Shown: piece after piece, positions 1,816-7,188 of the stretch
Numbering within the stretch: position 1 is the first letter of the stretch
Layout of the letters: each line of letters begins with the position of its first letter
DNA from: a virus
Taxonomy: Duplodnaviria > Heunggongvirae > Uroviricota > Caudoviricetes
Reading direction: 5' to 3' (one strand)
Virus record (IMG/VR): IMGVR_UViG_648276652_000008
Location: 1-7,211 of that record
Length of the DNA stretch: 7,211 nucleotides
The notes under the pieces: generated by a model
What the model saw: only the letters and a program-made list of their open reading frames with translations
Told to the model about the DNA's origin: nothing
Databases searched by the model: none
Made by a program: the position numbers and the translations under genes

Positions 1816-5493
<3,678 letters not shown>

Positions 5494-5522
<29 letters not shown>

Positions 5523-6000
5523 CCGCAAATTCCTTCATTTTTTCAGCGGACTCAACGCATTTATTAGCCCCCTTCGCAACCAGCTCTTTTAGATAAGCCA
5601 ATTGTCTGCCTGTCAATTCAGGGAATTTTCTTTGCATCGAAAGCGGAATACTGTCCAAAACAGATGCCAGTTCTCCGGATAACCGAGACAGGGCAAAAAT
5701 AGAGAAAGCTGTATCAATCACCTTATGCTCTGCAACCTGGTTTTTTAACCGCTGAGCAATAGCCTGTTCTTCCGTCAGGTTAACCCTGGCCTGAAGTAGC
5801 CTTTCCTCAAGATCATTTTCACCACCTGAAGATTTCTGGTTTTGTTGACGTCGCTCGCGATCTATCTCCAGTACAGTTTTAACGTCATAGAAAACCTCTC
5901 TCCCCCGGCGCTCAACAGGAGGAACACCCCATTTATCAAATGCCTGTACTGAGATACCGATGGAGGAGGCCATGTCGCTTTTATTCAATAAAAAGGCCAC
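5494..6000 (-). CDS. Terminase small subunit, Nu1-like but divergent from lambda Nu1 (phage 21 / NohA-NohD type suspected); about 168 aa
   Basis: C-terminal half ...KVIDTAFSIFALSRLSGELASVLDSIPLSMQRKFPELTGRQ... aligns with lambda Nu1 ...ETAFCTFVLSRIAGEIASILDGLPLSVQRRFPELENRH.... N-terminal LNKSDMASSIGISVQAFDKWGVPPV aligns with the Nu1 winged-HTH VNKKQLADIFGASIRTIQNWQEQGMPV. The 3' end overlaps the A start by 29 nt (26 nt in lambda). Start is uncertain: in-frame GTG at 6000 follows GGAGG and is preferred over the ORF-track TTG at 6024 or the ATG at 5973. Confidence 0.8.
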
Positions 6001-6033
6001 AGCCCCTCCATAAACCACCGGCAAAAAAGCAAT

Positions 6034-6042
6034 ACAACAACC
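6034..6042. promoter_or_regulatory. cosB candidate small-terminase binding element (ACAACAACC), R1-position equivalent
   Basis: 9-bp motif ACAACAACC, about 35 bp upstream of the Nu1-like start; one of three copies spaced like lambda R1/R2/R3. Confidence 0.45.
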
Positions 6043-6099
6043 ACGTTTTTTGTAAAACCCTCTGATTTTACATGCTTTTTCGTATAAGAAAGATCATCA

Positions 6100-6108
6100 G
6101 GTTGTTGT
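6100..6108. promoter_or_regulatory. cosB candidate small-terminase binding element, inverted copy (GGTTGTTGT), R2-position equivalent
   Basis: Exact reverse complement of the 9-bp motif at 6034..6042 and 6159..6167, located between them. Confidence 0.45.
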
Positions 6109-6158
6109 GTTTATTTTTCTTTCTTATTACTTATCAAGTAGATATATCAAACGATAAA

Positions 6159-6167
6159 ACAACAACC
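6159..6167. promoter_or_regulatory. cosB candidate small-terminase binding element (ACAACAACC), R3-position equivalent
   Basis: Second direct copy of ACAACAACC, 39-47 bp from the cohesive-end sequence. An AT-rich stretch with ATCAA cores (about 6110..6155) lies between this copy and the inverted copy, where lambda has the IHF site I1. Confidence 0.45.
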
Positions 6168-6205
6168 ATCACCTCAAAAAAACTCGTAAATAGCGAAAAC
6201 CCGCG

Positions 6206-6217
6206 AGGTCGCCGCCC
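6206..6217 (-). other. cos: cosN cohesive-end sequence (12-nt GGGCGGCGACCT on the minus strand), the lambda-type cos site
   Basis: Plus strand AGGTCGCCGCCC is the reverse complement of the lambda 12-nt cohesive end. Flanking bases (minus strand GGGCGGCGACCTCGCGGGTTTTCGCTATTTA) match the lambda left terminus for about 31 nt before diverging. Confidence 0.85.
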
Positions 6218-6249
6218 CGTAGCCTGCCGGATCACCGGAAAGGACCCGC
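6218..6249 (-). other. Conserved lambda right-terminus segment adjoining cosN (expected to contain cosQ)
   Basis: Minus strand GCGGGTCCTTTCCGGTGATCCGGCAGGCTACG matches the last ~32 nt of the lambda right end as recalled (GCGGGTCCTTTCCGGTGATCCGACAGGTTACG) with 2 mismatches; similarity is lost beyond about 6250. Confidence 0.5.
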
Positions 6250-6391
6250 AAAACCGAGAATAAGTATCAATACTATTTGTGATTTGAATGATGCACATCA
6301 TTGAAACGCCATTCATCCATATACCAGCAGCATTCGGTGTTGCACTTCGTAACTCTGTGACTACGGTTATAAAAGCATTGGCAACTTTTGC

Positions 6392-6438
6392 CACCGGCAA
6401 GTCTTCAATGGATTTCCCCTGCCGGTTTTTTATTTTCG
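6392..6438 (+). terminator. Weak hairpin plus T-tract (possible intrinsic terminator on plus strand)
   Basis: ACCGGCA / TGCCGGT 7-bp stem with a ~20-nt loop, followed by TTTTTTATTTT. Stem is short and loop long, so this is weak. Confidence 0.2.
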
Positions 6439-6524
6439 TCGATGCATAACATTGCATTTACATCAATAGCAGCTATTGTCATTAGTATGTTGCATCGATG
6501 CATGGGTGGTATTGGCGGTCTTCG

Positions 6525-6562: not shown

Positions 6563-6599
6563 ATTTCTAAGATTACAGAAGCCCTTCACTGTATGAAGG
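6563..6599. repeat. Perfect 16-bp inverted repeat with 5-bp spacer (TTACAGAAGCCCTTCA ctgta TGAAGGGCTTCTGTAA)
   Basis: Read directly: arms 6563..6578 and 6584..6599 are exact reverse complements. No clean U-tract follows on either strand (plus: AACTCTTCTTACTT; minus: AATCTTAGAAATAAAAAACC). Confidence 0.6.
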
Positions 6600-6777
6600 G
6601 CTTCTGTAACTCTTCTTACTTAGTAATTTTCGCACCTTCCGGTATTTCCATGAGTTGAGAAATCCTCATACTATCCGACAATAATCATCAATATACGATA
6701 AAGACATCTGACCAGATTGCAGTATTAAAAGCACTCATGCAGACTACGCCCCTCATATCATATACAAGGGGATACTG

Positions 6778-7188
6778 ATGGCTCAGGTTGCCATTTTTAA
6801 AGAAATATTTGATCAAGTGCGGAAAGATTTAAACTGTGACCGGTTTTACTCTGAACTAAAACGCCACAATGTCTCACATTACATTTACTATTTAGCCACA
6901 GGTAATATTCACATTGTATTTGAGAGCGATAACACGGTGTTAATAAAAGGTTTCCATGATGTTATTCATGTTAGCTTTTGCAGAGACACGCGACTTATAG
7001 AAACTTACCTTCATAAGTTGAAATCAAGAGAAATCACATTTCATGAATACAGGGTAAATCTGGCTAAAGCTGGAGTTTTCCGATGGGTTACAAATATCCA
7101 CGAACACAAAAGATATTACTATACCTTTGACAACTCATTATTGTTTACCGAAAGCATCCAGAACACGACTCAAATTTTTCCACGCTAA
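6778..7188 (+). CDS. ybcV: DUF1398 family protein (YbcV/YdfO-like prophage accessory protein), 136 aa
   Basis: ATG at 6778 preceded by AAGGGGA at the right spacing; clean ORF with stop at 7186..7188. Translation [47 protein letters not shown]...[24 protein letters not shown] matches my recollection of E. coli DLP12 YbcV / Qin YdfO. Symbol is from memory, not a search. Confidence 0.75.

What the first reader, a model, noticed from the sequence alone, without database searches (positions are those of the whole stretch)
6034..6217. cos site with three copies of a 9-bp motif arranged like lambda R3-R2-R1 but with a different sequence
ACAACAACC occurs at 6034..6042 and 6159..6167 and as its exact reverse complement at 6100..6108. 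The copies sit roughly 40, 100 and 165 bp from the cohesive-end sequence, the last about 35 bp upstream of the small-terminase start. This spacing mirrors the lambda cosB layout as I recall it, while the motif differs from the lambda R elements. An AT-rich stretch with ATCAA cores lies between the first two copies, where lambda has the IHF site I1. This looks like the cognate binding array for the divergent small terminase.
Basis: partly seen in the sequence, partly recalled or inferred. Interest (0 to 1): 0.5.

Follow-up and report, generated by a model that had tools for sequence, protein, structure and literature searches.

The report
Known N15/Monarch-type phage packaging site
The three 9-bp repeats are real and are almost certainly the small-terminase binding sites (R3, R2, R1) of a lambda-like E. 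coli prophage's DNA-packaging site, but both the motif (phage N15's R3) and the three-site layout ("Monarch" prophages) were published in 2015, so this is ordinary.

Summary
GGTTGTTGT, read on the minus strand in the packaging direction, lies at bp 51-59, 110-118 (inverted) and 176-184. Numbering starts at a lambda-identical cohesive end (window 6217..6206). The third copy ends 33 nt before the GTG start (6000) of a Phage_Nu1 small terminase (TerS). The 9-mer occurs nowhere else in the window or in the 40.8-kb prophage region.

The 9-mer is the core of phage N15's R3 site (bp 48-59, GAGGTTGTTGTT). Scrambling GTTGTT there cut phage yield about 100-fold (PMC4669245). The window's TerS has the same recognition-helix segment as N15 gp1 (GISVQAFDKWGV). 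Feiss et al. (2015) already described "Monarch group" prophages with exactly this layout:
- an N15-type R3, then an IHF site, an inverted R2 and R1;
- no rR2, the remote inverted copy inside the N15 TerS gene.

Every one of those features was tested here and met.

Comparative data agree. The motif is exact upstream of TerS in 24 of 26 protein-selected loci. R1, which played no part in locus selection, is 99% conserved against 69-80% in its flanks. About 297 of 5,426 complete E. coli genomes carry a full-length version.

Most likely mechanism: TerS dimers dock on R3 and R2 across an IHF bend and position the large terminase (TerL) to nick cosN. Binding itself is untested. Verdict: already known, low interest.

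The parts
6241..6247 (-). cosQ (GGGTCCT), the packaging-termination subsite upstream of cosN.
   Evidence: The minus strand reads tgcGGGTCCTttccggtgatcc...acg|GGGCGGCGACCT. The cosQ-cosN block is 90-95% identical to lambda-group phages. Phage 21 annotates the same block as 'R4'.
6206..6217 (-). cosN, the 12-nt cohesive-end sequence GGGCGGCGACCT. Bp 1 = window 6217.
   Evidence: Exact match to the lambda and phage 21 cohesive end.
6174..6205 (-). Conserved cosN-proximal block (CGCGGGTTTTCGCTATTTACGAG TTTTTTT), in the position of the lambda/21 I2 region.
   Evidence: The ...CGCTATTTATGA... block is conserved across the whole family, including distant Pseudomonas and Aeromonas loci. Phage 21 annotates I2 here.
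6159..6167 (-). R3: GGTTGTTGT at bp 51-59, the critical TerS site by analogy with N15.
   Evidence: N15 carries the same 9-mer at bp 50-58, inside the mutationally defined R3-N15 at bp 48-59. It is exact upstream of TerS in 24 of 26 TerS-selected loci.
6132..6144 (+). Candidate IHF site I1 (TATCAAGTAGATA, 12/13 to WATCAANNNNTTR) at bp 74-86, bottom strand relative to packaging. A second 12/13 match lies at 6145-6157.
   Evidence: same strand and position as the match inside phage 21's annotated I1, and close to the lambda match at bp 79-91. The TTGATAAGTAA core is conserved in all three-site relatives. The surrounding region is 75-85% A+T.
6100..6108 (+). R2: GGTTGTTGT in the opposite orientation, at bp 110-118.
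   Evidence: It is exact in E. albertii, Escherichia sp. and Aeromonadaceae-MAG relatives found through the protein and in a BLAST-found E. coli O103 relative. It shares a 19-nt, 84% extended match with R1.
6034..6042 (-). R1: GGTTGTTGT in direct orientation, at bp 176-184, 33 nt before the TerS start.
   Evidence: In 28 distinct three-site sequences selected only on R3 and R2, mean pairwise identity is 0.992 in R1 against 0.69 and 0.80 in its flanks.
5494..6000 (-). Small terminase subunit TerS: 168 aa, GTG start, N15 gp1-type winged helix-turn-helix N-terminus.
   Evidence: Pfam Phage_Nu1, E = 2e-21. Identity is 49% to N15 gp1, with GISVQAFDKWGV identical, 37% to lambda Nu1 and 26% to phage 21 gp1. 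RefSeq annotates the same 507-nt CDS.
3597..5528 (-). Large terminase subunit TerL (gpA family), the nuclease/ATPase that TerS positions at cosN.
   Evidence: Pfam GpA_ATPase and GpA_nuclease. RefSeq places the start at the equivalent of window 5522.

Best explanation
The region 6034-6247 on the minus strand is the cos site of an integrated lambda-like E. coli prophage. Its cosB subsite is of the 'complex' (R3-I1-R2-R1) architecture but carries phage-N15-type R sequences. This is the 'Monarch group' cosB of Feiss et al. (2015).

Proposed mechanism:
1. The winged helix-turn-helix domain of the adjacent small terminase (TerS, 6000..5494) recognises GGTTGTTGT, with a T-rich 3' flank.
2. IHF bends the A+T-rich DNA between R3 and R2, at or near 6132-6144.
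3. The bend lets a TerS dimer dock on R3 and the inverted R2.
4. That complex anchors TerL (gpA) so that it nicks cosN 51 bp upstream and produces the 12-nt cohesive end.
5. R1 acts as an accessory site.

Shown here: the anatomy, the homology to the mutationally defined N15 R3, the identical recognition-helix segment, and selective conservation of all three sites. Inferred: actual TerS and IHF binding, the hairpin geometry, and the relative importance of R2 and R1.
For: - **Anatomy:** exact copies at bp 51-59, 110-118 (inverted) and 176-184 from a lambda-identical cohesive end. Lambda R cores are at 53, 114 (inverted) and 155.
- **Same motif as N15 R3:** N15 has GGTTGTTGT at bp 50-58. R3-N15 is bp 48-59; scrambling GTTGTT (bp 54-59) lowered yield about 100-fold and scrambling GAGGTT about 7-fold (PMC4669245).
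- **Cognate protein:** TerS is a Phage_Nu1 family member. Of its first 40 residues, 35 are identical to N15 gp1, including GISVQAFDKWGV.
[quoted passage not shown] The window's TerS gene has no rR2-like copy with two or fewer mismatches.
- **Conservation in loci chosen by protein:** the motif is exact upstream of TerS in 24 of 26 loci, from Enterobacteriaceae to Pseudomonas, Aeromonas and Halomonas, always with ..SVQAFDKWG...
- **R1 footprint:** mean pairwise identity 0.992 against flanks of 0.69 and 0.80.
- **IHF consensus:** 12/13, at the same place and on the same strand as phage 21 I1.
- **Motif rarity:** absent elsewhere in 40.8 kb of the prophage.
- **No competing signal:** no promoter-like site in cosB and no Rfam family.
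Against: - No binding, footprinting or packaging data exist for this prophage or, as far as I could read, for any Monarch-type cosB. Only the N15 R3 was mutated.
- N15 works with R3 alone, so R2 and R1 may contribute little.
- The R2-R1 distance (66 bp here, 78 bp in the other subtype, 41 bp in lambda) is not conserved, which argues against a rigid role for R1.
- The IHF match is only a 12/13 consensus hit in A+T-rich DNA, and a second equal match lies 13 bp away.
- I could not read the Virology 2015 paper that shows the Monarch sequence. Identity with Monarch rests on matching every described feature, not on a sequence comparison.
- The invariance of R3 and R2 in the IMG/VR set is by construction, because they were the search pattern.
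Confidence: 0.88

Rival explanations
1. Only R3 is functional. R2 and R1 are dispensable remnants or weak accessory sites, because an N15-type TerS needs a single R3.
For: N15 and most TerS-selected relatives have a simple cosB with R3 only, plus a remote rR2 that is not critical. Variants with R3 and R2 but no R1 exist (L003, L011, L044, L111, L089, L039). The R2-R1 spacing varies by 12 bp between subtypes.
Against: R1 was not used for selection, yet it is exact in 27 of 28 distinct three-site sequences while its flanks are 69-80% identical. R2 is exact in relatives found by protein or BLAST. The R3-R2 gap is fixed at 50 bp across both subtypes. Three-site forms lack rR2, which suggests R2 and R1 replace it.
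Confidence: 0.2
2. The repeats are operators for a transcription regulator or for a satellite (PICI Rpp-type) protein, not for TerS.
For: PICI Rpp proteins bind cos-proximal DNA at an R3-equivalent position (PMC9026076). The repeats lie just upstream of a gene start.
Against: No sigma-70-like promoter is found in 5990-6260. The motif co-occurs with one TerS recognition-helix sequence across 26 diverse loci. The same motif in N15 has a packaging phenotype. The prophage late operon reads through cos from upstream.
Confidence: 0.03
3. Chance recurrence of a T/G-rich 9-mer in A+T-rich intergenic DNA.
For: With two mismatches allowed, the motif is no more frequent in the window than in shuffles (21 observed against 20.1 expected). 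With one mismatch allowed, 47 of 200 whole-window shuffles reach three hits.
Against: Three exact copies within 134 bp arose in 5 of 20,000 mononucleotide and 71 of 20,000 Markov shuffles. Cross-genus conservation of sequence, orientation and position is strong.
Confidence: 0.01

Closest known systems
cosB of the 'Monarch group' prophages (Feiss et al. 2015, Virology 482:260; described again in PLoS One 10:e0141934, PMC4669245)
   Same: Lambda-like cosQ and cosN. R3 strongly matches R3-N15. The TerS recognition helix is identical to N15's. [quoted passage not shown] All were checked here.
   Different: No difference detected. I could not obtain the Monarch sequence, so I cannot say whether the window belongs to the Monarch subtype. 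Two subtypes exist: R1 58 nt or 70 nt after R2, about 76% identical in cosB.
Phage N15 cosB (simple: R3 plus remote rR2)
   Same: Same R core, GGTTGTTGT, at bp 50-58 in N15 and 51-59 here. Same TerS family (49% identity overall), with 35 of the first 40 residues identical and the same length of 168 aa.
   Different: N15 has no I1, R2 or R1, and gene 1 starts at bp 89 against bp 218 here. N15 has rR2 inside gene 1 (bp 249-260), absent here. The N15 cohesive end differs at bp 9 and 12. N15 is a linear-plasmid prophage, whereas this one is integrated in the chromosome.
Phage lambda cosB (R3-I1-R2-R1) with gpNu1
   Same: Same architecture, orientation pattern and R3/R2 positions: 53 and 114 in lambda, 51 and 110 here. 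Identical cosN. IHF-consensus match between R3 and R2. TerS is homologous at 37% identity.
   Different: The R sequence is unrelated (lambda core CGTTTCC). R1 lies 21 bp further out. The TerS recognition helix differs. According to PMC4669245, N15-specific terminase packages lambda DNA, but lambda terminase does not package N15 DNA.
Phage 21 cosB with gp1
   Same: Same three-site layout. The I1 consensus match falls at exactly the same position (bp 74-86).
   Different: The R boxes (CGTGTCGG/CATGTCGG core) are unrelated. TerS identity is only 26%.

Membership tests
Monarch-type complex cosB (N15 packaging specificity) | Lambda-like 12-nt cohesive end with cosQ upstream. | tested here: met
   GGGCGGCGACCT at 6217..6206 and GGGTCCT at 6247..6241. 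The block is 90-95% identical to lambda-group cosQ-cosN.
Monarch-type complex cosB (N15 packaging specificity) | R3 at about bp 48-60 with a strong match to R3-N15 (GAGGTTGTTGTT). | tested here: met
   Window bp 49-60 reads ATGGTTGTTGTT, 10 of 12 against N15 bp 48-59 when offset by 1 bp. The 9-mer core is identical, at bp 51-59 here and 50-58 in N15.
Monarch-type complex cosB (N15 packaging specificity) | Three R sequences, with R2 opposite in orientation to R3 and R1. | tested here: met
   Direct at bp 51, inverted at bp 110, direct at bp 176.
Monarch-type complex cosB (N15 packaging specificity) | [quoted passage not shown] | tested here: inconclusive
   A 12/13 consensus match at bp 74-86 has a conserved core and the same position as phage 21 I1. 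Sequence match only; IHF binding cannot be tested with these tools.
Monarch-type complex cosB (N15 packaging specificity) | TerS recognition helix identical to that of TerS-N15. | tested here: met
   GISVQAFDKWGV is identical in both proteins.
Monarch-type complex cosB (N15 packaging specificity) | rR2, the inverted copy inside the TerS gene, is absent. | tested here: met
   No copy with two or fewer mismatches lies between 5494 and 6000.
Monarch-type complex cosB (N15 packaging specificity) | Sequence identity with the published Monarch cosB. | not tested
   The Virology 2015 paper is not held. The PLoS One text gives no sequence or accession.
Monarch-type complex cosB (N15 packaging specificity) | TerS binds the R sites and they are required for packaging. 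| not testable with these tools
   Requires EMSA, footprinting or helper-packaging assays.
N15-type simple cosB | Single R3, TerS start about 30 bp after it, and rR2 about 200 bp downstream inside the TerS gene. | tested here: not met
   The TerS start is at bp 218, R2 and R1 are present, and rR2 is absent. By contrast, N15, the Trabulsiella loci and Enterobacter phage MStein-2023a are of the simple type.
Lambda-specificity cosB | R sequences matching the lambda R consensus (core CGTTTCC). | tested here: not met
   The lambda cores at bp 53, 114 and 155 have no counterpart here; the window motif is GGTTGTTGT.
Phage 21-specificity cosB | R boxes matching those of phage 21 (CGTGTCGG/CATGTCGG). 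| tested here: not met
   Comparison with the annotated R3, R2 and R1 of M81255 shows no match. DNA similarity ends at bp 43, within the I2 block and before R3 (H60).
Phage_Nu1 small terminase (PF07471) | Profile match above the curated cut-off covering the N-terminal DNA-binding region. | tested here: met
   76.7 bits against a cut-off of 30, covering profile positions 4-162 of 164.

The most novel reading that the evidence does not exclude
The site itself is known, but the survey suggests something that may not be written up. One invariant TerS recognition helix (SVQAFDKWG) is paired with one invariant R core (GGTTGTTGT) across Gammaproteobacteria.

This pair appears in a graded series of cosB architectures:
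- R3 plus an intragenic rR2;
- R3 plus R2 without R1, with a GC-rich spacer lacking an IHF-like site;
- R3-I1-R2-R1, in two spacing subtypes.

A sister class in E. coli O157:H7 prophages has a changed helix (VSATAFDKWG) together with changed R2/R1 cores (GGTTGGTGT and AGTTGGTGT). That would be a natural covariation series for dissecting packaging specificity and how complex cosB sites are built or lost.
Probability: 0.2. Interest if true: 0.4.

Novelty: already known. Interest (0 to 1): 0.15.

Why it matters
cosB sequence determines which terminase can package which DNA. It therefore governs cross-packaging among co-resident lambdoid prophages, phages and satellites.

This prophage can be assigned N15/Monarch packaging specificity. 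It would be predicted to be packaged by, or to interfere with, N15-specificity terminases, and not by lambda or 21 terminase. The site is unannotated in RefSeq, although a full-length version is present in about 5% of complete E. coli genomes, including O111, O103 and O55:H7 strains. Flagging it has annotation value but adds no new biology.

Tried and rejected
the R boxes are unrelated, and DNA similarity ends at bp 43, within the I2 block and before R3.
- **DLP12 and Qin:** not examined separately.
- **Megablast and blastn of cosB+TerS against 50,697 phage records:** no full-length relative. Only the cosQ-cosN block (lambda group) and the N15 gene 1 N-terminus (74% identity) matched.
- **PDB sequence search with TerS:** no hit at E <= 0.01. 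Homology to lambda Nu1 rests on Pfam and BLASTP instead.
- **Rfam scan of the window:** nothing.
- **Promoter scan:** nothing in cosB.
- **Feiss et al., Virology 2015 (PMC4461450, PMID 25956737):** not held, so the Monarch sequence could not be compared.
- **Viral-contig hits with 80-82-bp spans and no TerS (for example L056):** the one inspected lies in ORF-covered DNA of an unrelated environmental contig, and the rest have no cosN or TerS nearby. I dismissed them as unrelated.
- **ORFs spanning cos (6072-6263 plus strand, 6134-6457 minus strand):** the 6134-6457 ORF has no Pfam match; the other was not scanned. Neither is annotated in RefSeq. I treated both as spurious.
- **Structure prediction of TerS:** not run, because it would not change the verdict.

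Full report
**Context.** All head genes in the window are on the minus strand. From right to left they are:
- a Phage_Nu1 small terminase (TerS);
- a gpA-type large terminase (TerL);
- gpW;
- a lambda-family portal;
- an S49 protease.

A DUF1398 gene lies on the plus strand at 6778-7188. An 851-bp segment covering cos and the TerS gene is 100% identical to an integrated lambdoid prophage of E. coli EC43. That prophage has a LexA-family repressor, Cro/CI, Q, lysis genes, Bor and DUF1398, followed by TerS and the lambda-like head and tail genes. RefSeq annotates TerS there as a 507-nt CDS, which corresponds to window 6000..5494 with a GTG start.

**Observation.** The 9-mer coordinates are exact, and even with one mismatch allowed there are no other copies in the window. 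On the minus strand the sequence reads ...GGGTCCT(cosQ)...acg|GGGCGGCGACCT..., identical to the lambda cohesive end. Bp 1 is window 6217. In that numbering GGTTGTTGT lies at bp 51-59, its inverse at bp 110-118, and a direct copy at bp 176-184. TerS starts at bp 218.

The lambda R cores (CGTTTCC) are at bp 53, 114 (inverted) and 155, with Nu1 starting at bp 191.

Three copies of any 9-mer in shuffles of the 218-bp region occurred in 5 of 20,000 mononucleotide shuffles and 71 of 20,000 Markov shuffles. The motif occurs nowhere else in 40.8 kb of the prophage region.

**What the motif is.** The N15 left end reads ...ATGAGGTTGTTGTTTAATC..., with the same 9-mer at bp 50-58. According to PMC4669245:
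- R3-N15 is bp 48-59;
- block mutation m2 (GTTGTT, bp 54-59) cut yield about 100-fold;
- block mutation m1 (GAGGTT, bp 48-53) cut yield about 7-fold.

The window's TerS is 49% identical to N15 gp1 over 162 aligned residues and has the same length. Of the first 40 residues, 35 are identical, including GISVQAFDKWGV. It is 37% identical to lambda Nu1 and 26% to phage 21 gp1. The annotated R boxes of phage 21 are unrelated.

[quoted passage not shown] Each of these features was tested here and met:
- R3, R2 and R1 positions and orientation;
- the recognition helix;
- no rR2-like copy with two or fewer mismatches in the TerS gene;
- an IHF-consensus match of 12/13 (TATCAAGTAGATA, window 6132-6144) at bp 74-86 on the bottom strand. 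This is the same strand and position as the consensus match inside phage 21's annotated I1, and close to lambda's match at bp 79-91.

The primary Virology paper could not be read, so sequence identity with Monarch itself is unverified.

**Comparative support.**

*Loci found through the TerS protein, not through the motif* (26 loci):
- GGTTGTTGT is exact upstream of TerS in 24 loci and has one mismatch in the other 2.
- It lies about 25-30 bp after the conserved CGCTATTTATGA block, always with ..SVQAFDKWG..
- The hosts range from Escherichia, Pluralibacter, Trabulsiella and Erwinia to Aeromonas, Pseudomonas, Halomonas, Oceanimonas and Marinobacter.
- Most are N15-like simple sites with an inverted copy about 150-160 nt into the TerS gene (rR2).
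- E. albertii, an Escherichia sp. and one MAG have the three-site form.

- In 60 of them a TerS signature follows the R3-R2 pair.
- Nearly all of those show a lambda-type cosN-like 12-mer 50-52 bp upstream, an R3-R2 gap of exactly 50 bp, and R1 either 58 nt (window subtype, GTG start) or 70 nt (ATG start) after R2.
- R3 and R2 invariance in this set is by construction. R1 was not selected, and its mean pairwise identity is 0.992 against 0.69 and 0.80 for its flanks.

*Relative found by BLAST:* an E. coli O103 relative has AGTTGTTGT at R3 and exact R2 and R1.

*Frequency in E. coli:* a blastn search with cosB alone finds full-length versions in 297 of 5,426 complete E. coli genomes. Of these, 22 are of the window subtype. 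None is annotated.

1. TerS winged helix-turn-helix domains bind R3 and the inverted R2 across an IHF-induced bend centred near bp 80.
2. This anchors TerL to nick cosN.
3. R1 is accessory.

The R3-to-cosN distance (51 bp here, 50 in N15, 53 for the lambda core) is conserved, which fits its known criticality in lambda. The binding steps are inferred.

The main open question is how much R2 and R1 matter, given that N15 manages with R3 alone. The conservation of R1 and the fixed 50-bp R3-R2 gap argue that they are under selection.

**Rivals.**
- Chance is excluded by the statistics and the conservation.
- A transcriptional-operator reading has no promoter support and ignores the N15 packaging phenotype.
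- An RNA element is not indicated.

**Verdict.** The 'different sequence' is the known N15 R sequence, and the three-site arrangement with it is the published Monarch-type cosB. I rate it already known and of low interest.

- the breadth of the motif-helix pairing across taxa;
- two spacing subtypes of the three-site form;
- two-site intermediates;
- a possible sister specificity class in O157:H7 prophages.

Noticed in passing
L155 (E. coli O157:H7 MB9-1) 439-620; L154 (E. coli FDAARGOS_1296) 439-620: A possible sister cosB class. The cosN and I2 block are the same, but R2 is ACACCAACC (the inverse of GGTTGGTGT) at bp 110-118 and an R1-like AGTTGGTGT lies at bp 133-141. The R3 region is GGTGGTGGT-rich. 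TerS starts right after, and its recognition helix is changed (RVSATAFDKWGV). This may be covariation of helix and site, meaning a distinct packaging specificity. It is common in O157:H7 genomes.
   Followed up: partly
L044/L131, L111, L089, L039 (IMG/VR); L003 (Pluralibacter gergoviae); L011 (Pseudocitrobacter): Two-site cosB variants. R3 and an inverted R2 are present, R1 is absent, and TerS starts 24-47 nt after R2. In L044 and L111 the R3-R2 spacer is GC-rich with no TTGATAAG IHF-like core. L044 has a tandem partial duplicate of R2 (ATAACAAC TAACAACAACC).
   Followed up: partly
L006-L028 (TerS-selected loci): The intragenic inverted copy (rR2, ACAACAACC) sits at a constant +149 to +161 nt from the TerS match start. 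It is exact in L006-L008, L010, L013, L014, L016, L023, L025 and L026, and has one mismatch in L012, L017 and L019-L021. These hosts range from Trabulsiella and Erwinia to Pseudomonas, Aeromonas and Halomonas. A binding site inside a coding sequence is thus conserved far beyond N15.
   Followed up: partly
window 6187-6500, compared with Escherichia phage phiSTEC1575-Stx2k (OQ243220): A mosaic joint. Identity of 96.8% runs from upstream of cos through cosN and stops at about bp 31 of the left end. cosB and TerS have no counterpart in that phage. The packaging-specificity module (cosB plus the TerS 5' end) appears to be exchanged as a unit, with a junction between cosN and R3.
   Followed up: no
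L069, L094, L105, L119, L062, L136, L049 (IMG/VR): The same three-site cosB and TerS N-terminus occur behind quite different 12-mers at the cohesive-end position (for example GGTCGGTGGACG, GGTCAGAGGACG, GTGCGTATACCC). cosN sequence and cosB specificity therefore assort independently.
   Followed up: no
window 6084-6093 and 6118-6127: A perfect 10-bp inverted repeat (ATAAGAAAGA / TCTTTCTTAT) symmetrically brackets R2, which sits in the 24-nt interval. In the other subtype a shorter, differently placed inverted repeat (GTAAGG...CCTTAC) flanks R2. Its significance is unknown.
   Followed up: no
window 6573-6609: A strong 16-bp-stem hairpin (TTACAGAAGCCCTTCA...TGAAGGGCTTCTGTAA) lies in the 470-bp non-coding stretch between the DUF1398 gene and cos. 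It is terminator-like but lacks a clean T tract.
   Followed up: no
window 6778-7188 (+): A DUF1398 gene is oriented against the late operon, between Bor and cos, in a moron-like position as in other lambdoid prophages.
   Followed up: no
L031, L038, L055, L056, L059-L061, L066, L091, L095 and others (IMG/VR metagenome contigs): GGTTGTTGT-N(62-64)-ACAACAACC pairs, spanning 80-82 bp, occur with no cosN and no TerS nearby. In L056 the pair lies in DNA covered by ORFs on both strands. These look unrelated to packaging. Several contigs share the same surrounding sequence.
   Followed up: partly
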